Origin: a virus
Lineage: Duplodnaviria > Caudoviricetes
Virus record (IMG/VR): IMGVR_UViG_3300028615_000023
Location: 554 to 64,553 of that record
Strand: one strand, 5' to 3'
DNA length: 64,000 nt
This document shows positions 22,737-36,834 of the stretch, piece after piece (within the stretch, counting starts at the first letter, position 1; every line of letters begins with the position of its first letter). The notes under the pieces are model-generated. The model saw only the letters and a program-made list of their open reading frames with translations, did not search any database and had not been told where the DNA came from. Position numbers and translations under genes: made by a program.

Positions 22737-23965
22737 GCGGCCACCTCCGCTATTACTTTTGCTTTAGTAGGACGTGATGCAAACGCGAACGTCTCATCAC
22801 GGTCAGAACGTTTTAGTAAAGCTTCAAACTCTACTGTGTCGCCTTCGTTAAGTGTATGATGATTTATGTTACTAGGAATGGTGGACCATACGCGGAAGCC
22901 GCGCGGATCTTCAACCGTCATTTTCCAAACGTCACCATACATGGATGAGTTACATTTAATCTTAAGAACCTTGCCACTAACCTTGACTCTTTCACCGATA
23001 GGCGCGGGCATTGACGGTTTACCTTTGCGTTCTTCTTCTTTCCTCTTCTTAGTTTCCTCCTTTTCCATGGCGCGATCATAAGCGCGAGGTGCGCTTACTA
23101 TTAAACCCCAATGCTTAAGACTAGTAACTTCATCTCTTACAAACAGAACCTTAAGATTATGGAGGTAATCATTGCCTCTGGTATCGAGATTACGTACCCA
23201 CTCGATAACATCGGCGGCTTTCTTATTAAGCTTCTCTCGATACTCCTTATCAACCGGAGCATTGATCTTCTCTCGAAGCTCCTTACCATATTTGTCAGAA
23301 CAGAAAAGGTAGTCCTGACAAACATACTTAGTAGGCTGATCAAAGTCGTTTGTTGTAGGTACGAAGCCAAGGCGTTCGATAATAAGCACAGCAACCTCAA
23401 CAACCACTTGCAGTGGCATTATGGGATCACCATGACGGCCACCATTATATTCATCATCACCCATGGCCCCGATAGCAGTTAACAAACCGTAAAACTTAAA
23501 TTTGTTAATAACAGATTCAGGCGAATCTGTACCTAGGAAATCTCGCAAGCAAGTACGTCCAACCTGCTTGAAGGTTCTACCCTTCTTAACTATGAACACG
23601 TCTTTACGCTGTCGGTTGTGTCCACAGTGGTCACACTTATCAGTAGTGTTACGATACTTACTAGGTAGAGCATCCTCCTGACCGGGAACATGATGCAACA
23701 AACAGTCTTTATTAACAAACTCGATACGTGCTAGAAACTCCCATCCTTCCAACATAACAGGAGCATCGGAAACCTCAACGTCGATTAGCACACGTTCGAT
23801 TTTAACTGTCTCCCCGGTAACTGGAGAATACTTCTCAAGAAAAACACTATAAGGCTCTCCGAACGAATACGTTATCTCACACCCAAGCTTCGAGCCTTTG
23901 GCAGCTAGCTTAGCAAGCGCAATCTCAGCAGCGGACTTGAACATCTCTTTAATAGTAACTTTCAT
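22733..23965 (-). CDS. conserved phage protein with zinc-binding motif and C-terminal OB-fold-like domain
   Basis: GWEFLARIE, CDHCGHNRQR, QVGRTCLRDFLG; C-terminal GERVKVSGKV...GD.VEF.A. Confidence 0.7.
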   Translation of the reverse strand: MKVTIKEMFKSAAEIALAKLAAKGSKLGCEITYSFGEPYSVFLEKYSPVTGETVKIERVLIDVEVSDAPVMLEGWEFLARIEFVNKDCLLHHVPGQEDALPSKYRNTTDKCDHCGHNRQRKDVFIVKKGRTFKQVGRTCLRDFLGTDSPESVINKFKFYGLLTAIGAMGDDEYNGGRHGDPIMPLQVVVEVAVLIIERLGFVPTTNDFDQPTKYVCQDYLFCSDKYGKELREKINAPVDKEYREKLNKKAADVIEWVRNLDTRGNDYLHNLKVLFVRDEVTSLKHWGLIVSAPRAYDRAMEKEETKKRKEEERKGKPSMPAPIGERVKVSGKVLKIKCNSSMYGDVWKMTVEDPRGFRVWSTIPSNINHHTLNEGDTVEFEALLKRSDRDETFAFASRPTKAKVIAEVAA

Positions 23966-23995
23966 TCGCTTCCCCCCTCCGATAAGGTAGTTAAG

Positions 23996-24325
23996 TTACA
24001 GTCTGCCCTCAGTGTTAAGAATTATTTCTGCATCGAACACGTCTTCAGATGTTCCATTTATGAATTCATGATTACCTAACAACTTCAGAACAAAGTGCTC
24101 GGCTGGATAGTAGCTCTTGAGTCCTGAGTAACGGGACCCAGGATTTTCAGAGTAACCTTTACGAGTTACTAGCAAGGTATTGCGCCGCTCATCATAAGCT
24201 CGCAATCTTACCTCCCCCACTTCGCCACTAAACTCAACGTGACTTGTGGACTTGTTAAAGTTAAGAAGTTTCATATTAGGTTTGATTGAACCATCCTCAA
24301 ATCTACAGTGCTTACATAGTGCCAT
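23996..24325 (-). CDS. hypothetical protein
   Basis: ORF flanked by degenerate repeat copies. Confidence 0.55.
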   Translation of the reverse strand: MALCKHCRFEDGSIKPNMKLLNFNKSTSHVEFSGEVGEVRLRAYDERRNTLLVTRKGYSENPGSRYSGLKSYYPAEHFVLKLLGNHEFINGTSEDVFDAEIILNTEGRL

Positions 24326-24349
24326 GAGCTTTTCCTCCCCGATAGAAAA

Positions 24350-24802
24350 TTAGTTTCTACCTGCGAACTCTGGATAGTGACAAACGTGAGTGTGACCATC
24401 TTCCTTAGTTGGGACGGCTAGCGTATCCCAAGACGGCTCAAGTTCAGGATGCTTTTTACAGTAGTCACAATTACAACCTCCGCACGGCCTACGCAGTTCA
24501 GAAGGCAGTGATACGAAAATTACATCTGAGTTTTTTCTAACTTGTGTATGCCTACCATTCATGTTCCCGTGCTTAGGACTCGACTTCTTAATAGCTTCAG
24601 TAACAGCAGGAGGTTTAATAGGTCTCGGCTCCATAACGGCTTGCAAGATTTTATCATTCCACTCTGCCATTTGTTGCGCCATGCTAAGAAGTAGCTGCTC
24701 GATTTCGTTTGGACTGGAAGAGTAATACTCTGCAATGCGCTCGATGCTCTCGCCTTCCATAACCATGTTCACAATGTCACTACGCTCTACTTTTGTAAAC
24801 AT
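24350..24802 (-). CDS. hypothetical protein (N-terminal HTH-like, C-terminal Cys motif)
   Basis: GESIERIAEYY; GGCNCDYC...WDTLAV...CHYP. Confidence 0.55.
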   Translation of the reverse strand: MFTKVERSDIVNMVMEGESIERIAEYYSSSPNEIEQLLLSMAQQMAEWNDKILQAVMEPRPIKPPAVTEAIKKSSPKHGNMNGRHTQVRKNSDVIFVSLPSELRRPCGGCNCDYCKKHPELEPSWDTLAVPTKEDGHTHVCHYPEFAGRN

Positions 24803-24811
24803 AAGAACCTC

Positions 24812-25207
24812 CTAATTATCTATGTCGCTATAAGTATACTGTTTAGTAAGCCACTCATAGAAACAGTTATCTATGTAGCTTTTTATGCCTTCGTAATTAC
24901 TACCAGTGACTTTTACAACAAAGTCTTCTGAAAGACTCGCTGTTATAATAACATCGTGATAGGTCCACTTAACATACATACCTTCTTCATTCATATGATG
25001 GAAGGCAGTATGAAAGACTAGTTTCTTGTGGTTGCTATTCACCTCATCAAGTTGAGTTCCATTGTCAAAGCCTGAACCGGAAGGAGCTTCTGACATTAGC
25101 TTCTTAATTCTCTTATCGAAGTTCTCAACCCATGTTCCATTGCCTTCCTTAATTGCGTTCTTCTTATCATCAACGTTCTGAGCAAGTCCAGTATAAATGT
25201 ATGGCAT
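24812..25207 (-). CDS. conserved hypothetical phage protein
   Basis: PSGSGFDNG...FHHMNEEGMY motif. Confidence 0.65.
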   Translation of the reverse strand: MPYIYTGLAQNVDDKKNAIKEGNGTWVENFDKRIKKLMSEAPSGSGFDNGTQLDEVNSNHKKLVFHTAFHHMNEEGMYVKWTYHDVIITASLSEDFVVKVTGSNYEGIKSYIDNCFYEWLTKQYTYSDIDN

Positions 25208-25241
25208 GCGCGTTTCCTCCCCGATAGCAGTTAATAATCTT

Positions 25242-25691
25242 TTACTTAGTTAGTTTCGCGTTCATCTCTTCAACACGAGAAAGCTTATCAATAAGAGACT
25301 CAATCCTTTCCCTAGTTGATCTAGTTGAGCATGCGAACATATTATGTTTAGTATGCTCAAGTGCTGTCCTCATTAGGTGAACTTCCAATGGAGAGAACCG
25401 ATGCTCCTCAGTTGGTTTCCTAGTTTGGTAACAGTGGTACACACCTTCGTCTCGCAAAACTATAAAGCACTCCTCAATACCTCCTGCTGTTATTTGGTGT
25501 GCGTATCGAATCACAGTGCTCCGTCTCTTTGCCGTCCAGTCACACGCCTTTCCATTGTTAGGGTTTATGCTTCTAGGAGTTCCATCTTTGTTAAGAATGA
25601 AACCGGCATAACCATACTGCCACATACCATCAATTGACTTATGAGGTTCACAACCGACAGCCAAGTCCATATGAAATTCATAACGTGCCAT
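25242..25691 (-). CDS. hypothetical protein
   Basis: Start MARYEF lies within a repeat/RBS unit. Confidence 0.6.
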   Translation of the reverse strand: MARYEFHMDLAVGCEPHKSIDGMWQYGYAGFILNKDGTPRSINPNNGKACDWTAKRRSTVIRYAHQITAGGIEECFIVLRDEGVYHCYQTRKPTEEHRFSPLEVHLMRTALEHTKHNMFACSTRSTRERIESLIDKLSRVEEMNAKLTK

Positions 25692-25724
25692 GCGCTTTAC
25701 CTCCCCGATAGCAGTTAACAACCT

Positions 25725-26087
25725 TCAAACACTTTTTCTACTTTTCACTTCTCCGTTAATGCAAATACGGCTATGATAATCCTTCAATAAAGCCACTTCA
25801 CTAGGTGTTAGTATACGACATTCACTAGGATGCCATGCTACTTCATGATGAAGCTTCTTATCTTTTAGACCATACGTTCCTACTCCCCGTACCATACATA
25901 AACAATGCAACTTAACCGGCAAACCATAATCTTCTATCTCACCATGGTCCAAGAATTCTACCTTACTAATCGGAATAACTATTCCGAAAGAGTGAGCCAT
26001 TCAAGCAAATCCATCTTTAAACTCACTCTTTCTACGTAATACATAACGGCCAACGTATTTCTTAAATGTGCTCTCACGTATTGCCAT
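25725..26087 (-). CDS. 120-aa protein with in-frame UGA at codon 29 (candidate selenoprotein or readthrough)
   Basis: ATG 26087 in a repeat/RBS unit; TGA 26001-26003 is in frame with ORF 25725-26000; hairpin at 25970-25987. Confidence 0.5.
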
Positions 26088-26118
26088 GCGCTTTACCCCC
26101 CGATAGCAGTTAACAAAC

Positions 26119-26334
26119 TTACAAACTAAGTTTGTCTAGGTCGGCTTCAGTTACATAATCGTAACTGTATAAACCACGCTTAACCGGAACTCTCACACGT
26201 TCAGGACTACGTTTCCATACCTTAGGCTGGCCATTTACTCTCCATCGTCGCGGAGTACCGTCTGCGTTCTGAGCATCGACTTGATGGAGAATATCTCCGG
26301 GCTTCAGGTTCTTAGCTTGTTCCAATGTTATCAT
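26119..26334 (-). CDS. conserved small phage protein
   Basis: RWRVNG..KVWKRSP..VRVPVK.GLY. Confidence 0.65.
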   Translation of the reverse strand: MITLEQAKNLKPGDILHQVDAQNADGTPRRWRVNGQPKVWKRSPERVRVPVKRGLYSYDYVTEADLDKLSL

Positions 26335-26346
26335 TAGTATTTCCTC

Positions 26347-26604
26347 CTAAACTTTTGCATAACGACCGTCTGAACCTTTGCTAACTTCAAACCGAAGTTT
26401 AACAGCCGACTTGATAGTAACTTCCCGTTTAGTAATCATATTGACGCCAGCCATGCGCGTCGTTTCCCGATAGGTTATACGACCGGCAAACTGATCATAA
26501 CTAGGAATCGACTTCTTAGCTATGCGAACTATCTTTACTGGAACCAGACGACCGGAAATCTTAGCTGCGTAAATCTTACCTTCAACTACTTCGTTAAGCT
26601 TCAT
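26347..26604 (-). CDS. conserved small phage protein
   Basis: GKIYAAKISGRLVPV...N..T.REV.IKSA.KLR. Confidence 0.65.
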   Translation of the reverse strand: MKLNEVVEGKIYAAKISGRLVPVKIVRIAKKSIPSYDQFAGRITYRETTRMAGVNMITKREVTIKSAVKLRFEVSKGSDGRYAKV

Positions 26605-26627
26605 AACTTTTCCCTCCCAATAGGTAA

Positions 26628-26810
26628 CTAACCTGCTTTATGTAGTTCCTTCCATTGCTCCATAGCTAGCATGCCTTCAATGAATGATTCAGCATCTCTG
26701 AGAGAAGAAAGAAACTTGCTTTTTTCATCTCCATAACTAACGCACCAACCCTTAAGGCCACCGTTTACAAATACTGGTTTAATCGTTAGTGTATCCTTAA
26801 TGTTAATCAT
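26628..26810 (-). CDS. hypothetical protein
   Basis: Start moved to MINIK after GAGGAG. Confidence 0.5.
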   Translation of the reverse strand: MINIKDTLTIKPVFVNGGLKGWCVSYGDEKSKFLSSLRDAESFIEGMLAMEQWKELHKAG

Positions 26811-26866
26811 GATTTTTGTCTCCTCGGCTATTGCTTGTTTGAGATACAGCACACATTTTCTTAGGT

Positions 26867-27076
26867 TTAGTCATCTATGCATTCCTCCTTTTCGAAAACC
26901 GCCTCATAGAAGCGCTCTGCACTGAATTGCGGGTTGTCTTCGGACAGCGCGTCCACGACAGCATGATAAGCGCAAAGAAATCCATTGTCCGATTTGAGAT
27001 CAAAATCTGTATGATGTAAACGAATGTAGGCGTCGTGGAGCTTACTTGCTATTAACTGGTAATCCTTTTTATGCAT
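26867..27076 (-). CDS. conserved small phage protein
   Basis: MHKKDYQLIA...DNPQFSAERFYEA. Confidence 0.65.
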   Translation of the reverse strand: MHKKDYQLIASKLHDAYIRLHHTDFDLKSDNGFLCAYHAVVDALSEDNPQFSAERFYEAVFEKEECIDD

Positions 27077-27131
27077 TCTTTTTTTTCTCCCGATAGGAAA
27101 TAACAAACTCCCCGATAGGAAATAACAAACT

Positions 27132-27299
27132 TTAGAACACCTCAACTATAGGTTCAAGGCAGTTCTCACAAGTATGGTCGTCGCGACAGTACTCGAAAAA
27201 GATAGGAGTGACGGACTCACTATTACGATTGCCATCGAAGCAATCTAAACAGTAGATAGCATCGTCTTCTGCATAACCTACAACTTCAGATATGTTCAT
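27132..27299 (-). CDS. small zinc-binding protein
   Basis: VGYA..DAIYCLDC...PIF...TCENC. Confidence 0.6.
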   Translation of the reverse strand: MNISEVVGYAEDDAIYCLDCFDGNRNSESVTPIFFEYCRDDHTCENCLEPIVEVF

Positions 27300-27371
27300 A
27301 CCCATTCCCTTCTTATTTGTTAGGGGGAGGCGTCGAGCCTCCCCGATAGGAAATAACAAACGCTTACTTAA

Positions 27372-27551
27372 CTATGCCCACGACCTCCACTTGATCCCAT
27401 ACTTATCCGCGAGTTCATCAACATCATCCCTAGACAAACACTCATTCACTACTGCCTGAGATAGGATTACTCCTAACTCTTCTTCAGTAACATTGTCTGC
27501 AATGATATCGAAGAACTCAACTGGTACTATAATCTTTTGTTCCATGTTCAT
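27372..27551 (-). CDS. 59-aa acidic hypothetical protein
   Basis: Own translation MNMEQKIIVPVEFF...WRSWA; AAAGGAG RBS. Confidence 0.5.
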   Translation of the reverse strand: MNMEQKIIVPVEFFDIIADNVTEEELGVILSQAVVNECLSRDDVDELADKYGIKWRSWA

Positions 27552-27565
27552 AACTCCTTTCTTAG

Positions 27566-27751
27566 TTAAAGACAGAACTCCTCATGACATAGCGGACACT
27601 GCCAATCGTATCCGCCTCCACTTAATAAGAACGCTGCGCCATGATGCTGTAACGGATCACTAGCAAGCGGGCAATCCTCCGGCGAGTACTGTCCCACTTG
27701 AGCTTCCGCTTCCTGTAGAAGCTCACTTAACATATGTTGTAAGTCTGCCAT
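27566..27751 (-). CDS. small hypothetical protein
   Basis: Start MADL lies in a repeat/RBS unit; CP...H...CPLC. Confidence 0.55.
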   Translation of the reverse strand: MADLQHMLSELLQEAEAQVGQYSPEDCPLASDPLQHHGAAFLLSGGGYDWQCPLCHEEFCL

Positions 27752-27783
27752 GCGCGTTTCCCTCCCGATAGCAGTTAAGAAAC

Positions 27784-28107
27784 TCACAGACTAGTATACA
27801 GTCCAGTGAGTCTTGTGAAACTCTCCTGAAGTGTATCGCAGTACACTTCAGTTTCCCGTCCTACCATCTCTACGTATGGTGCTTTCTTAGTAATACGCCA
27901 CACGCTAACTGTGTATGTGTCGGAAGGTTCAAGATCAATCTGAACCTTGCTAACTTTCTTGCCGTTGCATCTAGCATTAGGAACATGAAACAGAACACCT
28001 TTTTCTGTTACGGTAACACCCCTTACGCCCGTCATAGCTGCGAACCTTCCGGCTCCAAGCTGTTTCATGATCGTTTCCGCGACTTCATAAGCTATGCTTG
28101 CCTTCAT
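27784..28107 (-). CDS. conserved hypothetical phage protein
   Basis: AETIMKQLGAGRFAAMTG...DTY.V...VYCD.L...F...TGLYTSL. Confidence 0.7.
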   Translation of the reverse strand: MKASIAYEVAETIMKQLGAGRFAAMTGVRGVTVTEKGVLFHVPNARCNGKKVSKVQIDLEPSDTYTVSVWRITKKAPYVEMVGRETEVYCDTLQESFTRLTGLYTSL

Positions 28108-28122
28108 AACGTACCTCCTCAA

Positions 28123-28338
28123 TTAGTAATTATAACGAATTGTGTCGATGTTTTGTACCCAATCATCCTGACAGATGTTAAGAAGCTTTTCCTTAACTTC
28201 CTTGACCTTCATATCTTTGTATTTAGTTAGCAACCCTTCAAGCACTCGGTACAAAGCTTGCCTAACTTTACAGTCATCTTCATAGACCATGCCGTTACCT
28301 ATTTCGATTGCCATATCCATTGCTCTATTCTTTTTCAT
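28123..28338 (-). CDS. hypothetical protein
   Basis: ORF behind a repeat copy and RBS. Confidence 0.55.
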   Translation of the reverse strand: MKKNRAMDMAIEIGNGMVYEDDCKVRQALYRVLEGLLTKYKDMKVKEVKEKLLNICQDDWVQNIDTIRYNY

Positions 28339-28376
28339 AGATTTTTCCTCCCGATAGGAAATAACAAACGAGAAAC

Positions 28377-28583
28377 TTAGTTTCGGTTCCGCTTCCTAAC
28401 TATTACCTTGCCAGTGTATACCGGCTTCACGCTAGGATTGAAATCAGCTACGCACCATTCCCGGCCTGACTCATAATCTCGTTCCCTAGCAACAGCACGA
28501 GCGCCAGACTGATTAGTAGCACCATTCAAACGGGCATTGTTTCTCCACGATTTCATAATCTGATCAACACGTCGCATGCTCAT
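28377..28583 (-). CDS. hypothetical protein
   Basis: AAGGAG RBS. Confidence 0.5.
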   Translation of the reverse strand: MSMRRVDQIMKSWRNNARLNGATNQSGARAVARERDYESGREWCVADFNPSVKPVYTGKVIVRKRNRN

Positions 28584-28641
28584 TCTCCTTATCAGTTAAC
28601 AAGGGGCCGCCACGGCGGCCCCGATAGGAAATAACAAACTC

Positions 28642-28758
28642 CTACTTAACTAGTTTCAACCGTCCCTTGCATCGGCATACGATACGAGACAGAAGCACGT
28701 TCTTAGGAATACGCTTCTGTTTATTACACCTCACACACTCAACGAGCTTGGTCTTCAT
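28642..28758 (-). CDS. 38-aa zinc-ribbon microprotein
   Basis: Own translation MKTKLVECVRCNKQ...IVCRCKGRLK; AGGAGG RBS. Confidence 0.55.
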   Translation of the reverse strand: MKTKLVECVRCNKQKRIPKNVLLSRIVCRCKGRLKLVK

Positions 28759-28781
28759 ATGTCTTCCTCCTTATCGGTTTG

Positions 28782-29099
28782 TTACCTTGTGTAGATACCG
28801 TGGCGTCTCCGATAATCGTAAAGCCGAAAAGTGTATTCAGCATCACACACACTCGAATGATTCTTAGTTCTGCATCTACAATTCCTAGGAAGCTCCGGAT
28901 CAGGTCTCTCCTTAGCAAGGTTATACCTTGCAGAATTCGTACTTGCCGGAAGCTTAGTATAGGTCCTGTTTCCGCATTCCCTATACCTATGGCTTCGACC
29001 ATTCTTCACTTCAAGCACGTGATCACACCTAAACTTGCGTCCCGCTTCAATCACTGTAGCATGATCACACTTATTACAAACTACGTTCAACAGTTTCAT
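28782..29099 (-). CDS. Cys-rich protein, first gene after the long leader
   Basis: Several CxxC/CxC motifs; start MKLL after GGAGG. Confidence 0.6.
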   Translation of the reverse strand: MKLLNVVCNKCDHATVIEAGRKFRCDHVLEVKNGRSHRYRECGNRTYTKLPASTNSARYNLAKERPDPELPRNCRCRTKNHSSVCDAEYTFRLYDYRRRHGIYTR

Positions 29100-29135
29100 A
29101 GTAACCTCCACTTTATTAGTTAACATTCCACACAC

Positions 29136-30010
29136 TGAGACTAACTAGGTTGTCTCAATTAGGAGCACTAGCGTCCGCCCATTAGGGTTTGCCTAACTAG
29201 TGCTCCACGTTCAAACAACCTTGCCGTTGTTATGATTTTTTACACTTCATAATCGCTCGACTATTTTCGCTGGTCTAAGATCGCTGCACCTAGTTAATAA
29301 TGCTGTCACCTATTACTAACTAGGCGTCGATGCGCCATGGTTACTTATGAACTCTCGAACTCATGCAAGAGTCTGAGTCTAACAACATGAGTTTTACTGA
29401 TTACTGTTTGCGCCGTTCGTCTGGATAGCTAAGTCCAACCAACGGCTAGTTAACTATTAGACTCCCTGGGGTCCGCGTGTTAACTTGCTTACGTCCATCG
29501 CCTAACAGCATCATTAGAGAGTAACTCACGTTCACCATGTTTTATCGTTTGAATATCCAGCCCATCTTAATTCTGCGTTCGCAGAACGCCCGATAGAATT
29601 TTTTGTTAACTAATAAATAGGCTATCAACTCTATGCTTATTAGTTAACGCGACTCCCTAGGTTCGCATGAAAAACGCTATCAAGGTTTGGCTAGTGGATT
29701 GATTATGAAGTAGCCCGTTTTGTTGATGGTGGCAAATCCATCGAAGCTCCGGACAGTCTTCTTAGTAGCGCGATTCGCACGGCTACAATTTGCGTCGGTC
29801 GGCTTTCCTTCCACGTACTAGCCTTTATACCTGCGCCTTTTTTCGTTCGAGGTGGCTCGGTTCCGTTTCCTCGCACTGGCCACAGACAGTTCGCTTTCCA
29901 TTGAAGATGGCCATCTTCAACCCGTCTCGCGCCAGTGATTCAATTTTGAAAGAGCAATCGGCTATGGGCTCCCTGGGTCCCTGTGCCGCGACAGTCAAAC
30001 TGTCAATGTT
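29136..30010 (-). ncRNA. candidate large structured non-coding RNA / 5' leader
   Basis: About 870 nt without a credible ORF between a promoter and the first gene; at least ten inverted repeats, one with a G-U pair favouring the minus strand. Confidence 0.55.
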
Positions 30011-30015
30011 CCTGT

Positions 30016-30044
30016 AGTATGCCAGTATCAGGACTATGTGTCAA
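30016..30044 (-). promoter_or_regulatory. sigma70-type early promoter
   Basis: TTGACA-17 nt-CATACT with extended TGn and an upstream T-rich tract. Confidence 0.75.
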
Positions 30045-30143
30045 CGGAGAAAAAGAAAAAATCGACCAATAGCCAACTTTATAAGTACTTGAATTTATTG
30101 ACTTTTTTCGGTTGACGTGAAAAAAACGACTGTTGAAAGCGTT

Positions 30144-30323
30144 TTGTATATGCAATTGCATATACAATCGAATACGAATCGAGATGGCTCTAGAGAGCAG
30201 GGACAGACATTTGTATGGTATGGAGATAGCAGTACATTGCATATGCAATGTATATGGAATGTACTTAATATGTAAGTGGAAGGTTTAAACAGACGTTTGT
30301 ATGGTTAGATGTTGCATATGCAA
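30144..30323. repeat. three related palindromes (TTGCATAT-type); candidate origin or operator array
   Basis: 30144-30167 TTGTATATGCAATTGCATATACAA; 30233-30252 TACATTGCATATGCAATGTA; 30312-30323 TTGCATATGCAA. Confidence 0.7.
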
Positions 30324-30329
30324 TGCATA

Positions 30330-31349
30330 TTACATGTAGTGTATATGTAGGTCAGACAATTTCCCGTTACGGATTGTAAAGTAATCGGCTGGATCGGTCT
30401 TAATAGGTAACTGTAAAACTCGAACACGTCTTACGGTCCATAGTTTTGATTTAATAATAGAGGCTAGCTTCTTTGCATCCTTAATAGCATCATAGTCTAG
30501 CAACACGTCAATGTATCTTACATTCTTCTCTGCAAGTTTAGCAATCTGTTCATCTGATATAGTCTTACCTAACAACGCTATACCATTAAGCTTAGAACAT
30601 AGAACATCGAAGACGCCTTCCATAATAACTAATGGTGTATCCTTTCGCTCACATATATTATCATAGTTGAATATTACGTTTCGCATATCTGTCCCACACT
30701 CTTCTTCAGTAGGATTTATATACTTATTATCTTCCTCACTAGCAAACAAAACTCTCCTGCCTTGCCAAGCAACACATTGACCATTCATGAATATCGGAAA
30801 GATAGCGCATCCTTCATACTTACCTTTAGTTGCAAAACCTATTCTATACTTTCTAATTTGTTTAGGATGCACAAGTCTAGTAAGTACTATATAACGTCTG
30901 ATAGCTATACCTATACGTGAATTGCTAAAATCAATACGATACCCCTCAATTCTATCTAATTGTTCCTCAAGATCCATAAATCTAGGAATGGACGGAGGAG
31001 TTTTGTTAATTCTAAGAAGCTTGTTCTTCATATCTGATAGTGAAGGAGCTACAGTATACTGATCAATCAACGTCTCATTAGTAAACTGTGGAACAAGGTC
31101 AGGTATTTCCAATTGAGTTAGTAACTTCTCTATGGGATTACGTTTCTCTTTCTTTGATCCAGCTATATTACATCTAAAACATTTCCAACTATCCTTAGAT
31201 GGCCGAAAGTACAGTGTCTCTCTTACTTTCTTATGTATGCGCGTACACTTCGGACAAACAAAGCTAACTTCTCCATTATGTTGTTCTGTAAACTTGATGC
31301 CACGGTGCCTAGCTACGTTCAGTAGATTATTAACTAAGTATGTATTCAC
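30330..31349 (-). CDS. DNA primase (zinc finger plus TOPRIM)
   Basis: CPKC...WKCFRC; IMEGVFD; LLGK; LLDYDA; TDPAD. Confidence 0.88.
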   Translation of the reverse strand: MNTYLVNNLLNVARHRGIKFTEQHNGEVSFVCPKCTRIHKKVRETLYFRPSKDSWKCFRCNIAGSKKEKRNPIEKLLTQLEIPDLVPQFTNETLIDQYTVAPSLSDMKNKLLRINKTPPSIPRFMDLEEQLDRIEGYRIDFSNSRIGIAIRRYIVLTRLVHPKQIRKYRIGFATKGKYEGCAIFPIFMNGQCVAWQGRRVLFASEEDNKYINPTEEECGTDMRNVIFNYDNICERKDTPLVIMEGVFDVLCSKLNGIALLGKTISDEQIAKLAEKNVRYIDVLLDYDAIKDAKKLASIIKSKLWTVRRVRVLQLPIKTDPADYFTIRNGKLSDLHIHYM

Positions 31350-32786
31350 CTAATCTCCTCCATAATGCGCATCAAGGTCGCTATCGGGCCGAACTATCCC
31401 CTTACGTTTACGTGTACCTCTAGGTGATCCATCTTTATTAACTCTAAATCCCGCGTTCCGCATTATCTCTACATACTTATTAACTTCTATCTCAACCATA
31501 CGAAGGTAGTCCCAATTAGTTCTACAGAACACCATAGTCCCACGCTTCTCACCCCTAGTCTTATCACAATATAGACGGCACACACCGGCTGTATATTCAT
31601 CTTCAGTCTGACAAACTACTATTGCATTATCTACAGTCGCGGCCTTAACAATTCTTGCATCATAAGAATCAGTCGCATGATACAGCCATTTATCTACAGT
31701 CTCTTGGCCACTTTGTGAAGCAGTAAATAAATGAATACCAAACTCACTTGCCATGGCTCGTTCGTCTTCATACATCTCTGATAGCTGCTGTTGACGGTTT
31801 GTTAACTGTCCTTCATACCTAACAAGGTCAGAGTAATCTAAGAATGCTGCATCTATATCTTCTTGACTTTTAGACATTGATATATGTGACCTAATAGTAT
31901 CATGCGTTATAGCTCTACCCGGAAAGAACTTAACCCATAGTTCACCGCCACTTCTTAACCTAAATAATCTAAGAGCTTCATCAACTTTCTTAATATTATC
32001 TATCATTCCAGCCGTCTTAACTCTTGCTAGATTTGCATAGAACCTCATCATTAACCGCCAGTCTTTAATCTCTAGTGTATAGTAAATAACTTTATGCCCG
32101 CGTAGTGCCGCGCCTAGAGCCATATTACCCATAGTTGCCGTCTTACCCCTATTAGGTGGAGCAACTACTAAACTCATCTCACCGGGATAGAAACCTCCTA
32201 CTGCGTGTTGAAGATGGGGAAAGTTAATATTCAACTGTTCCATCTCATCGGAGTACCTAAGAAGTACATTCTTAGGCGATTCTCTAAGTCTTAAACCCAT
32301 ATCTCCTGCACCGAAACCTTCACTATATGCATTGTCGATTGTTCTTTTCATACCTGAAAAGTCACCACGATCTAGCATATCAATACTTTTAGATAAGGCC
32401 ACTTTCATAGTTTGATATCTCGCGGCCTTTATTACTTGGTCCTTTATGAAATCGCCATCGGAAATATCAACCTTATATATTTGAGTTATTAATGTATCGT
32501 ATCCTTTGTAAAGATTATTATCTTCATCAATCTTATCTTTCAGTATCTTCCTCATACTAGACCGTTGAGGAAGCTTACCGTAGCTACTCCAGAATTCACG
32601 AAGCCATAAGCACACGTCTTTATGGTATTGAGAATCGAATAAGGAAGGTTTAATAATATCGCCGTACAAGCTCATAAAATAAGGTTCTCGTACAGCGATT
32701 GCTAATACACGAGTTTGGAAGCCGGTTTCGAAACGCTCAGATAATGAAACAGATTTAGGTGTCCTGAAAGTATTCTTAATTGTCAA
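31350..32786 (-). CDS. replicative DnaB-like helicase
   Basis: APPNRGKT, YYTLE, FLDYSDL, TASQ. Confidence 0.88.
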   Translation of the reverse strand: MTIKNTFRTPKSVSLSERFETGFQTRVLAIAVREPYFMSLYGDIIKPSLFDSQYHKDVCLWLREFWSSYGKLPQRSSMRKILKDKIDEDNNLYKGYDTLITQIYKVDISDGDFIKDQVIKAARYQTMKVALSKSIDMLDRGDFSGMKRTIDNAYSEGFGAGDMGLRLRESPKNVLLRYSDEMEQLNINFPHLQHAVGGFYPGEMSLVVAPPNRGKTATMGNMALGAALRGHKVIYYTLEIKDWRLMMRFYANLARVKTAGMIDNIKKVDEALRLFRLRSGGELWVKFFPGRAITHDTIRSHISMSKSQEDIDAAFLDYSDLVRYEGQLTNRQQQLSEMYEDERAMASEFGIHLFTASQSGQETVDKWLYHATDSYDARIVKAATVDNAIVVCQTEDEYTAGVCRLYCDKTRGEKRGTMVFCRTNWDYLRMVEIEVNKYVEIMRNAGFRVNKDGSPRGTRKRKGIVRPDSDLDAHYGGD

Positions 32787-33217
32787 ACCGGAATCCCCCT
32801 CTCTTTACAGTACTTAACAAAGTTATCTTCATATTCTCTAAGCCTCTTAGTTGATACTCTCGTACTAGGTTGAATAGTAGATAATGAAATAGGTTTATTA
32901 GACTTAAGTGCTCGCCTACATCTAGGCAATTGCAATACACTCCTTACCCACGGATCAAATGGATAGCCGCTGTATTTTATCCATATCGCTAGTTCAGCAA
33001 TGTAAAACCATGCTCTAGTATATTTCTTTTTACCATCTTCTACAGAGTAGATTCTATAAAACGGAACAAATAATGATGATTGAAACGTTGCTTTACTTCG
33101 CTCTTCAGCTACTATCCTTGCTAATGCCATTGCTACACATACTAAGTATTCATCTGTTATCTTATGCTTCTTAAGTTTCTTTTTAAGCCATTGCTTATAT
33201 TGCTTAACATCAGTCAC
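32783..33217 (-). CDS. basic hypothetical protein between the helicases
   Basis: GTG start after AGGAG; overlaps both neighbours. Confidence 0.55.
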   Translation of the reverse strand: MTDVKQYKQWLKKKLKKHKITDEYLVCVAMALARIVAEERSKATFQSSLFVPFYRIYSVEDGKKKYTRAWFYIAELAIWIKYSGYPFDPWVRSVLQLPRCRRALKSNKPISLSTIQPSTRVSTKRLREYEDNFVKYCKERGIPV

Positions 33218-34772
33218 TACTCTTCTCCTGATTAGCAAGAGCTTTGAAGTATTCTGAGGAAGGTAGTTTATTAACTTGCTCTACATCAGGAAACAGTTTT
33301 TCTATGTTGACAGAATCATTATTAACAACTTTTATATCGAATTCACTTTCCTCCTGATACTGAGAAAGTCTATCCATTGAGTGATTACGTAGGTGTTTAT
33401 TGTTCATCACCATAACATCTATGATAATAGCTCTGTTTGTTCCACTGCTTTTTCTACGTATTCCTCTACCTAATCTCTGCTCAATCTTAATACTGCTTTT
33501 TCCCCCAGCCGCGATCACTAGTTGTCTAATGTTAGGAATATCAACTCCTTCATCATAGATAGTCGTAGCTATAATCGCATCTATCTTTCCTTTATTAAGT
33601 CTCTTTCTAGTACGCTCTCTTACTGCACTATCAATTTTACCTGTAAGATTCTCTGCTTTGATTTTATTAGCTTTCAATAGCTTGTGTAAATCTTTACCTA
33701 AGTCTATGGAATTACCCACTACTATAAGCGTTGTTTCACCGGCTTCAGTGGCCGCTTTGGTAGCATCTAAAACTACTCTATGTACCTTTGGATTTTTTAT
33801 TAATAGTTGCTTTCTAGCTTCATGCCATTTTTCAGACTCCCATTTTCTATCCCCGCCAACCGGAGCACAAAATACGACTGGCCTAGCGAGTCTTCCTCTC
33901 TTAATAAGTTTAGACATACCACATTTTGCTACTATAGGACCCATACTTGATAACACTGAAACATCTCCAGCATTCATCTTAGTTATATTATTATTCCACT
34001 TTTGAAATGGCCTAGCTGATATACCTAATCGAGCCATAGGGTGCAGTGCGGCGATCATTCTTTTACTTTGTTCAGAACGTTGATGATGTACCTCATCATA
34101 CACGACCATATTAATTCCTAGATCACACAATTTTTTGAATAACTTAATATCCTTTCCTTGAGAAGCGTTACGTATTATCGTATCAACTGTCTGTATCGTA
34201 CCAACTAATATGCGTCTATTGCCATAATGAATACCTGATTGAACTCTTCCAACGTTAACACCTAATCGTAATTTTATTCTATTAGTAGCTTGTGTTAATA
34301 AGTCTTTTGTATTTACAAGAAACAATATCTTAGTATTTGAAGTATGCTTGAGCACTTGCTTCATTATGGCGCATGCTATCTCAGTCTTACCTGATCCAGT
34401 TGCATACCATATCAACCCCATTGATCCAGACTTGAACCATCTATTTATTGCATACAATTGGTCCTTCTCTAACGTAATACCTTTTAAGAAATCTTTTTCT
34501 ACTGTAGGAGGAGCAATCCTACGTACCTTAAACGATCTTTTATACGGTATCTTATTATCTTCGAAATGTTTCTTTACGTGCGGCCAAAGCCCACGAGAGA
34601 AAGCCTGATTCTTTTTATCAAAAAATCTTATCTTTCCGTCCCATTTCTTCTTCCTCATCCAAAAAGAATTAGGAACTTTAGAACTTAATAACCGTGATAG
34701 ATAGTTAGACATATCTCTACCACATACTACTTTTACGATAGTATTCTTCACTATAAAATGTGTTGTACTCAT
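33210..34772 (-). CDS. SF2 helicase, UvsW-like
   Basis: ATGSGKT, DEVH, SARP, EGVDIP, QRLGRGIR. Confidence 0.9.
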   Translation of the reverse strand: MSTTHFIVKNTIVKVVCGRDMSNYLSRLLSSKVPNSFWMRKKKWDGKIRFFDKKNQAFSRGLWPHVKKHFEDNKIPYKRSFKVRRIAPPTVEKDFLKGITLEKDQLYAINRWFKSGSMGLIWYATGSGKTEIACAIMKQVLKHTSNTKILFLVNTKDLLTQATNRIKLRLGVNVGRVQSGIHYGNRRILVGTIQTVDTIIRNASQGKDIKLFKKLCDLGINMVVYDEVHHQRSEQSKRMIAALHPMARLGISARPFQKWNNNITKMNAGDVSVLSSMGPIVAKCGMSKLIKRGRLARPVVFCAPVGGDRKWESEKWHEARKQLLIKNPKVHRVVLDATKAATEAGETTLIVVGNSIDLGKDLHKLLKANKIKAENLTGKIDSAVRERTRKRLNKGKIDAIIATTIYDEGVDIPNIRQLVIAAGGKSSIKIEQRLGRGIRRKSSGTNRAIIIDVMVMNNKHLRNHSMDRLSQYQEESEFDIKVVNNDSVNIEKLFPDVEQVNKLPSSEYFKALANQEKSSD

Positions 34773-34775
34773 AGT

Positions 34776-34804
34776 ATTCTATAATGCTTTTCGGTCTTGT
34801 ATAA
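34776..34804 (-). promoter_or_regulatory. phage-specific promoter motif, copy 4 (probably leaderless mRNA)
   Basis: TTATACAAGACCGAAAAGCATTATAGAAT, 3 nt before the helicase ATG; no SD. Confidence 0.6.
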
Positions 34805-34812
34805 ACTCGAAT

Positions 34813-34845
34813 AAAAAAGGCGCGAACTTATGCTCGCGCCTTCTT
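34813..34845 (-). terminator. terminator ending the structural operon
   Basis: GGCGCGA...TCGCGCC followed by TTTTTT. Confidence 0.8.
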
Positions 34846-34863
34846 ATCATACACGTTATTGTT

Positions 34864-35124
34864 TTAGTTTTCAGAAGGAGGTGCCGAAGGAGTAGGTACT
34901 ATAAAATCCGTATCCTTATTATCTTCCTTCTCTTGTGTTGATTTAATAAGTTGCTTCTTTAAATTAGCAGATACTTCTTTTTCCGCACCCAATTGAATAA
35001 CACAAGCACTATGCAAATTAGCCATATGATTATATGCATTTGTCAATGCAGATTTACTAATATTAACTTCCTGCGCTGCTACGGTCGTTGCAATCGACAT
35101 AATAATAAAAACTATTAAGGACAC
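34864..35124 (-). CDS. small protein with signal peptide/TM and coiled coil
   Basis: GTG start after GGAGGT; SLIVFIIMSIATTVAA-QE. Confidence 0.55.
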   Translation of the reverse strand: MSLIVFIIMSIATTVAAQEVNISKSALTNAYNHMANLHSACVIQLGAEKEVSANLKKQLIKSTQEKEDNKDTDFIVPTPSAPPSEN

Positions 35125-35504
35125 GCTGTACCTCCTTCTTGTCTTTGAGCCCAAGCTGAATACTTGGCTTTTACACCTTTAGATTCAAACACAGTACATT
35201 TAATATTATGCGGAACATCACTATCTTTTGCAAATGGGATCATCCATTCATCAATGTCTATCTCTTCTTCTTGAGCCTCAAATTGTTTCTTAGCTTCAAC
35301 CCAATCATCAAAAACACTAAGAAGTTTTGATGTTACAAAATCTCGTGTTTGTACAGAATCGCATGATGCTCCTGCTTCCTGTGTACATGCAAATATAGCT
35401 CCAGCATCTTGTTCTGCTGTAGTAGTAAAATGATTCCAGTCCGCAGCATTAATCGTAAAAGTTACAGCCACAAAACTAATAAAAATTAATATTAACTTTT
35501 TCAT
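35115..35504 (-). CDS. putative secreted protein
   Basis: MKKLILIFISFVAVTFTINA-AD signal peptide. Confidence 0.6.
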   Translation of the reverse strand: MKKLILIFISFVAVTFTINAADWNHFTTTAEQDAGAIFACTQEAGASCDSVQTRDFVTSKLLSVFDDWVEAKKQFEAQEEEIDIDEWMIPFAKDSDVPHNIKCTVFESKGVKAKYSAWAQRQEGGTACP

Positions 35505-35514
35505 AATAATCTCC

Positions 35515-36834
35515 TTATGGTTCAATTGCAATCTGTTGTGCCGCCCCGGTCTGGAAAATCACCATGAGACGTGTCTTACCCGCACCATTGTCTTCTGCAT
35601 AAATTCGAGCAACATCTGTAGTACCGGATGGTGCGGACCCTTCCTCCGGCAATTGGATGGGACCACTGTTAACAACAAAGCCAGTACCTTCCGGTTCTAA
35701 TACTAAGTTATCATTACCTGCTGCTGTACCGCCTCCAACGACACGCACTGTTCCCGCACTGGCAGTACGTACCATCTCGATGCGTTCATAATTTGTTAAA
35801 TCATCATCGTCCCTAGTTACCGAAACAATACCGGTCCCCAATGTCGTCGGACCAACGCTCAAATGACCGCTTGCTGCTTGATACAATGCTGTATCAGTCG
35901 TGCCTCCAATAGTAGTTTTAAACTGAATGGAACGCATGACTTTTATTAGTACATTGTTGATATCAGTTATAAGAGCATACCCGCCACTCGTTTCGTCAAG
36001 CACACCAAAGAAACCTGAGCTATTATCAATAGCGGCGATAACATCACCCGAACCAGTAGGTTCCAACCGGATATTGACGTTATCACCACCAGTCCCCGCT
36101 GTTTGCGCTTGAAATAAGATGTTATTAAGAGCCGTGTCGATGCCAATGCGAACGCCCTCATAATCCGTCCCACTATCATCATCCCTTATCTGAATGAACA
36201 TATTACTAGGACCAGATGTTGTAGTAACGTTAAGCTTCTCGCTACCCGTCTTACAGCCAATGCATACATTACCTCCACCATAATTGATGGACGTGTTATA
36301 TGCGTTCTCACCATTAATAGTAAATGGTCTTGATGAAGCTCCTTCATAATTAACAACTACTGTACCACCCAAGGAATATCTACGTATACCTCCTAAATTA
36401 GTTGCTCCAGTTTCAAATGTTATGCCTTCGCCATTATTCTGAATTTCAAACTCTAATGCTGAAGGGGAACCCTGTGTAATACAAAAGAATGGACCATTAT
36501 GTCTAACACATTGTAGTATAGAACCGGATTCAGGTTTCCAGTCAACGCCCTCTGGATGAAATAATTGAGTTCCAGTAAAATCAATAGTTGTATTATTATC
36601 ATTTATTAATATCCATACTTGTTGACCCTCTACAGCATCATCTAAATAAGTAATAGTAGTTGGACTACTGTTATTAGTTATGAACCACGTACCTCCAGAA
36701 ACACTTGGAGTAGTATCACCATCGGAAAATACTTGAGCCGGTCCAAACTGAAACTCTGGACGTATAGCATCTTGAGCAAATGCCCAAGGAACAAACATTA
36801 GTAAATAAAACAAAAGTATGTAAAATAATTTCAT
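35515..36834 (-). CDS. tail-fibre-like protein with N-terminal signal peptide
   Basis: MKLFYILLFYLLMFVPWAFA-QD; Gly/Thr-rich beta repeats; C-terminal ARIYAEDNGAGKTRLMVIFQTGAAQQIAIEP. Confidence 0.65.
   Translation of the reverse strand: MKLFYILLFYLLMFVPWAFAQDAIRPEFQFGPAQVFSDGDTTPSVSGGTWFITNNSSPTTITYLDDAVEGQQVWILINDNNTTIDFTGTQLFHPEGVDWKPESGSILQCVRHNGPFFCITQGSPSALEFEIQNNGEGITFETGATNLGGIRRYSLGGTVVVNYEGASSRPFTINGENAYNTSINYGGGNVCIGCKTGSEKLNVTTTSGPSNMFIQIRDDDSGTDYEGVRIGIDTALNNILFQAQTAGTGGDNVNIRLEPTGSGDVIAAIDNSSGFFGVLDETSGGYALITDINNVLIKVMRSIQFKTTIGGTTDTALYQAASGHLSVGPTTLGTGIVSVTRDDDDLTNYERIEMVRTASAGTVRVVGGGTAAGNDNLVLEPEGTGFVVNSGPIQLPEEGSAPSGTTDVARIYAEDNGAGKTRLMVIFQTGAAQQIAIEP

What the first reader, a model, noticed from the sequence alone, without database searches (positions are those of the whole stretch)
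29136..30010. Large, densely structured RNA between a consensus early promoter and the first early gene
Seen: about 900 nt with no credible ORF, in an otherwise tightly packed genome, starting just below TTGACA-17-CATACT. Stems visible by eye include GACAG/CTGTC at the 5' end (29990-30004); CACTGGC/GCCAGTG enclosing a 20-bp palindrome (29901-29920); a 12-bp GTTAACTAATAA stem (29605-29648); TTCTGCG/CGCAGAA (29571-29586); GCCGTT/AACGGC; AACTCATG/CATGAGTT; CCTAGTTA/TAACTAGG; and a 10-bp GGAGCACTAG stem (29162-29206) extended by GGUUGUUUGAA/UUGAGACAACC, whose U-G pair favours the minus strand. It also carries one CTATCGGG core (29590). Established: phages encode large ncRNAs (GOLLD, ROOL) and cis antiterminator RNAs (HK022 put). 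Inference: a possibly new large ncRNA or processive-antitermination leader working with the downstream repeats.
Basis: partly seen in the sequence, partly recalled or inferred. Interest (0 to 1): 0.8.

Follow-up and report, generated by a model that had tools for sequence, protein, structure and literature searches.

The report
Repeat-rich non-coding phage control region
A 1.2-kb gene-free stretch at the head of an uncultured marine-sediment phage's early genes is real and full of inverted repeats, but the repeats look more like double-stranded DNA binding sites inside a transcribed control region than like a new large folded RNA.

Summary
Window 29,100-30,010 has no credible ORF. The 900 nt fold about 33-40 kcal/mol better than shuffles, which four control segments of the same genome do not.

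The signal is not RNA-specific. Both strands gain equally. With G-U pairs forbidden the excess is 48 kcal/mol on each strand. Local 150-nt windows are no more structured than the neighbouring genes. The stems are built from a few short words reused in both orientations (YTAGTTA x9, GTTAAC x5, one 12-mer x3) and a perfect 20-bp palindrome. An adjacent AT-rich block carries four 12-bp palindromes.

Rfam gives nothing. No relative of the phage could be fetched and no RNA data exist, so covariation and expression are untestable.

Best reading (about 0.4): a composite control region, transcribed as an untranslated leader, whose repeats act as DNA sites (replication origin or regulator array). Main rival (about 0.25): a Nus/boxA-type antitermination leader, hinted by one boxA-like word at +54. 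A new large ncRNA is about 0.07. This is ordinary-to-moderate interest.

The parts
30050..30329 (.). AT-rich block (30-40% GC, reversed GC skew) with four 12-bp palindromes of the TTGCATATGCAA type (30,144; 30,156; 30,237; 30,312) and two copies of ACAGACRTTTGTATGGT. It lies between the primase stop (30,330) and the promoter.
30016..30044 (-). Host-type promoter: TTGACA, 17-nt spacer, TG-n-CATACT. A T-rich tract lies just upstream (30,045-30,065). Inferred start near 30,009.
   Evidence: sequence read; for the rest of the window
29990..30004 (-). 5'-proximal hairpin GACAG-UUUGA-CUGUC, 5-6 nt from the inferred start.
29944..29981 (-). Small hairpin GGG-[ACCCAGGGAG]-CCC followed after 9 nt by the boxA-like word TGCTCTTTCAAAA (29,956-29,944).
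29874..29937 (.). CACTGGC...GCCAGTG arms around the perfect 20-bp palindrome TTGAAGATGGCCATCTTCAA (29,901-29,920). Part of a 52-55% GC block, 29,750-30,050.
29460..29980 (-). Three same-orientation copies of GACYCCCTRGGKTC (plus-strand coordinates 29,460-29,473; 29,651-29,664; 29,967-29,980). On the minus strand they read CCYAGGGAG.
29112..29648 (.). Word-repeat block: nine YTAGTTA words (4 in one orientation, 5 in the other), five GTTAAC, and the 12-mer TTATTAGTTAAC three times (29,113; 29,637; inverted at 29,605). These words make up most of the stems at 29,289-29,324, 29,448-29,485 and 29,605-29,648, and a 14-nt long-range complement 29,112-29,125 / 29,604-29,617.
29571..29596 (-). Partial copy of the early-gene leader motif (CTATCGGG, 29,589-29,596), followed by the hairpin UUCUGCGAACGCAGAA (29,571-29,586).
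29147..29221 (.). Longest hairpin: a 10-bp perfect stem (29,162-29,171 / 29,197-29,206) extended to 25-nt arms at 80% complementarity. It ends 38 nt before the Shine-Dalgarno word of the first ORF.
28782..29109 (-). First ORF below the region: GGAGG at 29,105-29,109, ATG at 29,099, 105 aa, basic and Cys-rich. It is an orphan with weak coding statistics (0.07 per codon).
28603..28627 (-). CTATC + GGGGCCGCC-GUG-GCGGCCCC hairpin + UUGUU. A terminator-like or 5'-hairpin unit after the first ORF.

Best explanation
Window 29,100-30,329 is a composite, protein-free control region. It lies between the end of the helicase-primase genes and the first early ORF of an uncultured siphovirus-like phage whose visible genes all lie on the minus strand.

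Shown:
- It has three blocks: an AT-rich block with four 12-bp palindromes; a GC-rich block that starts with a host-type promoter and holds a perfect 20-bp palindrome; and a 530-bp block in which a few short words (YTAGTTA, GTTAAC, one 12-mer, CTCCCTRGG) recur many times.
- The inverted repeats stabilise both strands equally and need no G-U pairs.

Inferred:
- The promoter at 30,044-30,016 fires towards the early genes, so the 0.9 kb is transcribed as an untranslated leader.
- The repeats and palindromes work mainly as double-stranded DNA sites for phage or host DNA-binding proteins.
- The most likely roles are a replication origin and/or a regulator (operator) array. The site sits next to the helicase and primase genes and under the early promoter, whose transcription could open or activate it.
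- RNA-level roles are probably limited to local elements: the 5' hairpin (stability), the boxA-like word (protection from Rho), and the long hairpin before the first ORF (possible processing site).
For: - Non-coding.
- Promoter. Of the 11 sites with 10 or more of 12 matches in 1-60,000, 5 are on the minus strand, and only this one has a perfect TTGACA plus TG.
- Strand-symmetric, Watson-Crick-only excess: with G-U allowed, -39.1 (minus) and -32.8 (plus) kcal/mol against shuffles; with G-U forbidden, -48.1 and -48.2.
- Word reuse: TAGTTA/TAACTA 9 in 911 nt against 82 in the other 63 kb, and 9 in that kb against 0-4 in every other kb. GTTAAC: 5 of 23.
- GACYCCCTRGGKTC: 3 of the 4 matches in the window, against 0.65 expected.
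- Perfect palindromes without a loop: 20 bp at 29,901-29,920, and the 12-bp palindromes at 30,144-30,323, which hold 4 of the window's 6 matches.
- Arms are often 20-25 nt apart, and the same word forms the 5' arm in one hairpin and the 3' arm in another.
- AT-rich block with reversed skew next door.
- DnaB-type helicase and primase lie immediately upstream.
- Known analogue: repeat families in a large non-coding region serve as origin sites bound by an initiator in the PLE satellite (PMC7145576, passages read).
Against: - No initiator or regulator has been tied to these words, and most neighbouring proteins are orphans.
- No DnaA-box-like 9-mer lies in the region.
- The cumulative GC skew shows no turning point, but that is uninformative when all genes share one strand.
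- The three CTCCCTRGG copies all point the same way, which would also suit an RNA motif.
- A promoter reads through the region, so an RNA role cannot be excluded.
- The AT-rich block lies upstream of the promoter, not downstream.
- Everything rests on one sequence. There is no conservation, binding or replication data.
Confidence: 0.4

Rival explanations
1. RNA-level leader. The 0.9-kb transcript is a cis-acting antitermination and stability leader. A boxA-type word near the 5' end loads host Nus factors, so RNA polymerase crosses the long untranslated stretch and the hairpins between early genes without Rho-dependent or intrinsic termination. The hairpins protect and process the RNA.
For: - Promoter with a T-rich upstream tract and a 5' hairpin 5-6 nt from the inferred start.
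- TGCTCTTTCAAAA at +54 to +66, flanked by hairpins. It is the only exact match to my degenerate pattern in the window and the only TGCTCTTT on the minus strand.
- It differs at one of the 10 specified positions from the gamma-proteobacterial consensus GYTCTTTAANA (PMC5725501, passages read).
- A terminator-like GC hairpin follows the first ORF.
- By established knowledge, an untranslated 900-nt RNA is exposed to Rho.
- The GC skew of the leader has the same sign as in the genes and flips only upstream of the promoter.
Against: - The literature consensus with one mismatch or fewer hits 21 places in the window, against 17.9 by chance.
- My stricter pattern was defined after seeing the site.
- The host and its boxA are unknown.
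- No strand-specific folding signal exists, and local windows are no more structured than the genes.
- The role does not explain perfect loop-less palindromes or the reuse of words in both polarities.
- An antitermination site needs under 100 nt, not 900.
Confidence: 0.25
2. A new, discrete large structured non-coding RNA (GOLLD/ROOL-like in scale) made from the early promoter.
For: About 900 nt without an ORF. Whole-region z of -4.4 to -6.6 on the minus strand, while the controls lie between -2.98 and +0.14. The highest GC bin of the window, 0.454.
Against: - No Rfam match at the gathering score in the window, nor at E<=10 in 28,500-30,500 within the finding.
- The plus strand folds as well as the minus strand, and G-U pairs add nothing.
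- Stems share the same words, which would favour misfolding.
- Many loops are 20-25 nt.
- No terminator-like site on the minus strand in 27-31 kb.
- No homologue in any collection, so there is no covariation.
Confidence: 0.07
3. A genome-end or DNA-transfer element: a concatemer junction or terminal repeat, a packaging site, or a T5-like injection-stop region at the boundary between the last and first genes of a one-strand genome.
For: All ORFs of 150 aa or more lie on one strand, and the region separates the replication/structural block from the small early ORFs. [quoted passage not shown]
Against: - No direct repeat longer than 41 nt involves the region.
- No DnaA-box-like 9-mer lies in the region, whereas the T5-like regions carry eight.
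- One assembled contig of 11,462 nt from the source run crosses 26,942-38,000 without a break or variant. Contigs cannot show ends.
- The terminase genes are not nearby.
Confidence: 0.08
4. No dedicated function: decayed early genes or junction debris, whose stop-rich linker words (TAGTTAAG-type) were duplicated and inverted.
For: - GC content and skew resemble the adjacent early-gene block.
- The same kind of stop-rich word ends the early genes.
- Stop triplets are enriched on both strands, z 2.3 and 2.8.
- The first ORF itself has weak coding statistics.
Against: - No translated or nucleotide similarity to the rest of the window (best tblastx E 0.077, best blastn E 0.23).
- Four separate motif families and perfect palindromes are confined to this 1.2 kb.
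- The rest of the genome is tightly packed.
Confidence: 0.15

Closest known systems
Iteron-bearing non-coding origin regions of phages, satellites and plasmids (example read: the 2.7-kb non-coding region of the Vibrio PLE satellite, PMC7145576)
   Same: A large gene-free region with several families of short direct and inverted repeats. An AT-rich stretch is adjacent, and the region lies next to replication genes.
   Different: No initiator protein is identified here and no binding or replication data exist. The words (YTAGTTA, GTTAAC) are shorter than typical 17-22-bp iterons, and a promoter reads through the whole block.
boxA-dependent antitermination sites (rrn leaders, lambda nut, suhB leader; PMC5725501, PMC3177189)
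   Same: A TGCTCTTT-type word within the first 70 nt of a transcript, flanked by hairpins, ahead of a long untranslated stretch.
   Different: One mismatch to the published gamma-proteobacterial consensus at position 8. The consensus is not enriched above chance in this genome. The host is unknown, and no N-like protein was looked for successfully.
T5 injection-stop (iss) untranslated repeat region (10.1101/866236, abstract only)
   Same: A large untranslated stretch with repeats, inverted repeats and palindromes at the head of the first genes expressed.
   Different: No DnaA boxes were found, a terminal repeat cannot be shown, and the phage is not T5-like by protein similarity.
T7 left end and early leader with its RNase III site (recalled, not checked with a tool)
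   Same: All genes lie on one strand. Several hundred non-coding bases with host promoters precede the first early gene, and a long irregular hairpin lies just before that gene.
   Different: There is a single promoter here and no terminal repeat is seen. The resemblance is from memory only.
Large phage-associated ncRNAs GOLLD and ROOL (Rfam families)
   Same: Size class (0.6-0.9 kb) and phage context.
   Different: No covariance-model match even at E<=10. There is no strand-specific structure signal and no homologues.

Membership tests
Any Rfam family (including GOLLD, ROOL, group I/II introns, riboswitches) | Score to the family covariance model at or above the gathering threshold | tested here: not met
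   0 matches in the whole window at gathering. At E<=10 in 28,500-30,500 there were 4 weak hits, none inside 29,136-30,010.
Structured functional RNA (generic) | Folding energy lower than shuffled sequence | tested here: met
   z -6.55 and -4.35 on the minus strand; controls -2.98 to +0.14. The plus strand is equally low.
Structured functional RNA (generic) | Strand-specific signal (G-U pairs help the transcribed strand only) | tested here: not met
   With G-U forbidden, the excess is -48.1 (minus) and -48.2 (plus) kcal/mol, larger than with G-U allowed. Wobble positions in the imperfect stems favour either strand about equally (read).
Structured functional RNA (generic) | Covariation across homologues | not testable with these tools
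   No homologous sequence. nhmmer and blastn against 168 fetched loci found none.
boxA / Nus antitermination site | Match to the boxA consensus GYTCTTTAANA (PMC5725501) | tested here: inconclusive
   GCTCTTTCAAA at 29,955-29,945 has 1 mismatch (position 8). 21 such matches occur in the window against 17.9 by chance. TGCTCTTT is unique on the minus strand.
boxA / Nus antitermination site | Position in the 5' part of a transcript, next to a hairpin | tested here: met
   +54 to +66 from the inferred start, with hairpins on both sides. The start is inferred, not measured.
HK022 put-type RNA | Two adjacent stem-loops just below the promoter that act on RNA polymerase without protein factors | not tested
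   No model was at hand, and no Rfam family of any kind matched. The feature list is recalled.
T5-like injection-stop region | Ordered series of DnaA boxes in the untranslated repeat region (abstract of 10.1101/866236) | tested here: not met
   12 matches to the 9-mer with 1 mismatch or fewer in the window, against 18.5 by chance. None lies in 29,100-30,330.
T5-like injection-stop region | Location inside a long terminal repeat | not testable with these tools
   The record is a fragment, about 64% complete. Only contigs, not reads, could be laid.
Iteron-type replication origin | Cluster of repeated short words | tested here: met
   9 YTAGTTA words in 530 bp, at about 7.5 times the density in the rest of the window. 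Further motif families.
Iteron-type replication origin | Adjacent AT-rich unwinding region | tested here: met
   30,050-30,350 is 30-40% GC, against 52-55% just below it.
Iteron-type replication origin | Cognate initiator binds the repeats, and replication starts there | not testable with these tools
   No initiator family was recognised among the proteins scanned.

The most novel reading that the evidence does not exclude
The 0.9 kb is a new kind of phage leader RNA. It would combine a boxA-type site at the 5' end with repeated hairpin modules: three loops reading ACCYAGGGAG and stems made of UAGUUA words. These would bind or titrate a host or phage RNA-binding factor. The leader would act together with the 18 CTATCGGG(G) motifs that sit directly before the early-gene ribosome sites, so that one RNA element sets read-through, processing or translation of the whole early block.
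Probability: 0.1. Interest if true: 0.7.

Novelty: new member of a known kind. Interest (0 to 1): 0.3.

Why it matters
A real large regulatory RNA at the head of a phage early operon would be a rare find. The checks here show that the visible "structure" is what a cluster of palindromic DNA sites also produces. Equal gain on both strands, and a gain that persists with G-U pairs forbidden, make a cheap test that separates the two readings for other scan hits of this kind. For this phage, the region is the best candidate for the early promoter, its control sites and the replication origin. Its nearest recoverable relatives share only about 38% identity in the primase.

Tried and rejected
Relatives:
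- blastn of 29,000-30,400 against 50,697 phage records found nothing.
- The primase and DnaB proteins in IMG/VR and JGI metagenomes found no relative.
- The word-indexed 5.8-billion protein search found only the query itself, both for the primase and for the first ORF.
- A full HMMER search of the primase gave a best relative at 38-39% identity.
- Primase alignments fetched 80 + 80 loci at 36% identity or less.
- Single-protein fetches of P0002, P0005, P0003 and P0004 found nothing.
- nhmmer and blastn of the region against all 168 foreign loci found none, and no locus has 3 or more CTATCGGG.
- Of 113 distant loci that could be evaluated, 2 (L032 and L113, the same gap) have more than 500 nt free of ORFs after the primase. 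That gap has no tRNA, no Rfam hit and no dense repeats.
- The 16-mer of the early-gene motif gave 7 single, unrelated hits.
- The hairpin pattern of 29,605-29,648 hit one contig (L170) that shares no protein with the window. By my rough estimate (arithmetic, not a call) such a hit is plausible by chance for so AT-rich a pattern.
- The 20-bp palindrome gave no hit.

Expression:
- No RNA holder was listed. Only the probable source run holds the stretch.
- Laying contigs showed one 11,462-nt contig across the region, with no variants. This says nothing on transcription or on genome ends.

Other ideas dropped:
- Small ORFs.
- Decayed paralogues.
- tRNA or tmRNA genes.
- Tandem arrays: only 2-copy micro-repeats were found.
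- DnaA boxes.
- A phage RNA polymerase or sigma factor that could read the CTATCGGGG motifs as promoters. Neither PF00940 nor PF04542 is found in the 64.5-kb record. The PF00940 control rang nowhere, so that blank is void.
- Placement by polymerase and helicase: only 25-28% identity to SPO1-like and SSU5-like phages.

Literature:
- A full-text search for the recalled boxA words did not retrieve a Gram-positive consensus, so that comparison is left out.
- Supplementary tables of PMC5725501, which hold the boxA position data, were not opened.
Full report
Context. The window is 64,000 of the 64,553 bases of a linear IMG/VR virus record, estimated 64% complete. The only public run that holds the stretch is labelled marine sediment metagenome. 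All ORFs of 150 aa or more lie on the minus strand.

Reading along that strand, the order is as follows. First come tail and head genes: tape measure, a J-like central fibre and a head protease/capsid. Then come a superfamily-2 helicase, a DnaB-type helicase (31,350-32,786) and a DnaG-type primase (30,330-31,349). The gene-free zone follows. After it come some 25 small orphan ORFs, then an AAA+ protein and a family-A DNA polymerase with a UDG-like N-terminus. The closest cultured phages share only 25-28% identity in helicase and polymerase.

The observation.
- No ORF longer than 57 aa lies on the gene strand between 29,100 and 30,010.
- A codon log-odds score trained on this genome's long genes is negative in all six frames over 29,075-29,749 and never above -0.01 up to 30,049. 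The primase scores +0.2 to +0.3 and the small early genes mostly +0.1 to +0.3.
- No start codon with a Shine-Dalgarno word opens an ORF of 25 aa or more, apart from a 57-aa TTG frame with a weak AGGA at -15.
- The first credible start is ATG 29,099 behind GGAGG.
- The non-coding zone extends beyond the finding, up to the primase stop at 30,330, and is 1.23 kb long.
- The promoter TTGACA-17-CATACT is confirmed at 30,044-30,016, with TG before the -10 element and a T-rich tract just upstream.
- Consensus matches as a class are at or below shuffle expectation everywhere: 51 against 59, 56 against 54, and 40 against 60 in the three 20-kb scans. Among the 11 sites with 10 or more of 12 matches in 1-60,000, 5 are on the minus strand, and only this one has a perfect -35 plus TG and lies in an intergenic gap.
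- Window 60,001-64,000 was not scanned.

Is the pairing more than chance? At the 900-nt scale, yes.
- The tool gives MFE -287 kcal/mol, z -6.55 for the minus strand, and -264.3, z -4.18 for the plus strand, with 20 shuffles each.
- My own 22 dinucleotide shuffles give z -4.35 and -4.74.
- Four 900-nt control segments of the same strand give -2.98, +0.05, -0.91 and +0.14.

At the local scale, the signal is hardly above chance.
- Five non-overlapping 150-nt windows average z -0.77 +/- 0.61. Sixty early-gene windows average -0.31 +/- 0.18, and 38 helicase-primase windows average -0.38 +/- 0.21.
- Twelve overlapping windows average about -1.4 on the minus strand and -1.5 on the plus strand (averaged by hand).
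- Perfect inverted repeats of 7 bp or more number 7 in the finding, against 3.5 +/- 1.9 per 900 nt. The window maximum of 10 is reached by windows starting at 28,601-28,701 and, equally, at 4,901-5,601.

RNA or DNA? The decisive control was to forbid G-U pairs.
- The excess over shuffles is then -48.1 kcal/mol on the minus strand and -48.2 on the plus strand. That is larger than with G-U allowed (-39.1 and -32.8).
- So the signal consists of Watson-Crick inverted repeats and carries no information on which strand, if any, folds.
- In the imperfect stems, wobble-compatible mismatches favour the minus strand in two places (29,289-29,324 and position 8 of the 29,147-29,221 arms). They favour the plus strand in two others (position 13 of the same arms and the long-range pair 29,244/29,692), as read.

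The stems are made of reused words.
- TAGTTA/TAACTA occurs 9 times in the 911 nt, against 82 times in the other 63 kb. That is 9 in that kilobase against 0-4 in every other. Four copies lie in one orientation and five in the other.
- GTTAAC occurs 5 times there, out of 23 in the window.
- The 12-mer TTATTAGTTAAC occurs three times: twice direct and once inverted. One copy abuts the ribosome site of the first ORF.
- The same word is the 5' arm in one hairpin and the 3' arm in the next.
- Arms are often 20-25 nt apart.
- A perfect 20-bp palindrome without a loop lies at 29,901-29,920.
- Four TTGCATATGCAA-type 12-bp palindromes fill the AT-rich block at 30,144-30,323. They are 4 of the 6 window matches at 2 mismatches or fewer, and the other two both have 2 mismatches.
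- GACYCCCTRGGKTC occurs three times in the region, out of 4 matches in the window, against 0.65 expected. All three copies lie in the same orientation.
- Reused, loop-less and polarity-indifferent repeats are what arrays of protein-binding DNA sites look like. In a single large RNA they would promote misfolding.

Composition splits the zone into three blocks:
- 30,050-30,330: 30-40% GC, with reversed GC skew.
- 29,750-30,050: 52-55% GC.
- 29,100-29,750: 36-49% GC. This is the word block.

Known RNA families. No Rfam family reaches its gathering score anywhere in the window. At E<=10 in 28,500-30,500 there are four weak hits, none inside the finding. No tRNA or tmRNA gene is present. No terminator-like site lies on the minus strand between 27 and 31 kb, so a transcript from the promoter would run on into the first ORF.

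A lead for the antitermination idea. TGCTCTTTCAAAA at 29,956-29,944, about +54 to +66, resembles boxA. It follows a small hairpin, GGG-[ACCCAGGGAG]-CCC.
- It is the only exact match in the window to the degenerate pattern I wrote after seeing it.
- It is the only TGCTCTTT on the minus strand, while the plus strand has 3.
- Against the published gamma-proteobacterial consensus GYTCTTTAANA (PMC5725501, passages) it has one mismatch.
- Such one-mismatch matches are as common as chance predicts: 21 against 17.9.
- The structural paper states that NusB-NusE reads 8 nt and that positions 1, 6 and 9 differ between two species (PMC3177189, abstract and passages). A variant base there is therefore not disqualifying.
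- The host is unknown. I count this as a weak point in favour of an RNA-level role at the 5' end only.

Comparative and expression evidence could not be obtained. The searches are listed under Tried and rejected. In short, nothing closer than about 38% primase identity exists in 1.84 billion representative proteins. None of the 168 foreign loci fetched resembles the region.

Interpretation. I read 29,100-30,329 as the early control region of the phage.
- Shown: it is non-coding. It has a strong host-type promoter match pointing at the early genes. It carries at least four locally confined motif families and two kinds of perfect palindrome. Its pairing potential is strand-symmetric.
- Inferred: the 0.9 kb is transcribed as a leader. 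The repeats are double-stranded DNA sites for a replication initiator and/or regulators, placed beside the helicase-primase genes and an AT-rich stretch. RNA-level elements are local: the 5' hairpin, the boxA-like word and the long hairpin 38 nt before the first ribosome site.
- A read analogue is the 2.7-kb non-coding region of the PLE satellite. Its repeat families include the origin bound by RepA (PMC7145576, passages).
- The resemblances to the T7 left end and to transcription-activated phage origins are recalled, not checked.
- Confidence is 0.4. The RNA antitermination leader (0.25), decay without function (0.15), a terminus or transfer element (0.08) and a new large ncRNA (0.07) remain open.

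Novelty and score. The sequence is an orphan, but the kind is known: a repeat-rich non-coding control or origin region at the head of early genes. The bold reading, a new large leader RNA acting with the 18 CTATCGGG motifs, is not excluded, but nothing specific supports it. Interest is 0.3.

Noticed in passing
window 9,210-29,596 (minus strand), densest at 20,900-28,630: CTATCGGG occurs 18 times on the minus strand and once on the plus strand, against 0.83 expected. In about 13 of the 18 minus-strand copies it lies inside a roughly 21-nt conserved block (GTTTGTTAACTGCTATCGGGG or GTTTGTTATTTCCTATCGGGG). In most copies that block runs straight into the ribosome site and ATG of a small early gene. 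In 3 copies it runs into a hairpin instead. The layout, about 17 conserved nt followed by a G run, recalls single-subunit RNA-polymerase promoters (from memory). No such polymerase and no sigma region 2 is found in the 64.5-kb record, and the polymerase search had no working control. It could equally be a processing or translational-control site.
   Followed up: partly
window 30,140-30,352: Three units of about 80 bp, each with a TTGCATATGCAA-type palindrome. Two of them also carry ACAGACRTTTGTATGGT. The last unit overlaps the primase stop codon. It looks like an operator or origin array.
   Followed up: partly
window 26,885-26,971: In the probable source run, two alternative contigs join 26,914 to 26,942: one of 87 nt that matches the window, and one of 401 nt with about 340 extra letters. 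This is an insertion/deletion polymorphism in the early-gene block.
   Followed up: no
window 49,700-51,420: Two adjacent structural ORFs (49,510-50,817 and 51,023-52,120) carry dispersed 60-67-nt repeats and a 148-nt duplication at 99% identity (50,891 / 51,147). This is a repeat-built, fibre-like protein pair.
   Followed up: no
window 28,782-29,099: The first ORF after the region encodes a 105-aa, very basic, Cys/His-rich orphan. It has no family, and only itself was found in the 5.8-billion protein search. Its codon score (0.07) lies between the real genes and spurious frames, and a 114-aa frame overlaps it on the other strand. If it is not a gene, the non-coding zone is 1.75 kb.
   Followed up: partly
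window 28,575-28,645 (minus strand): A weak sub-threshold Rfam hit to osmY RNA (24.5 bits against a gathering score of 46.9, E 0.007). It coincides with the GC hairpin after the first ORF and is probably the hairpin alone.
   Followed up: no
window 1,998-4,808: A family-A DNA polymerase with a UDG-superfamily domain at its N-terminus. Its nearest cultured relatives are SPO1-like Bacillus phages, at 27% identity.
   Followed up: no
L170:53-102: An unrelated IMG/VR contig carries the same GTTAACTAATAA ... TTATTAGTTAAC hairpin arms and the same first 16 nt, near its end. No protein is shared with the window, so this is likely chance in AT-rich DNA.
   Followed up: yes
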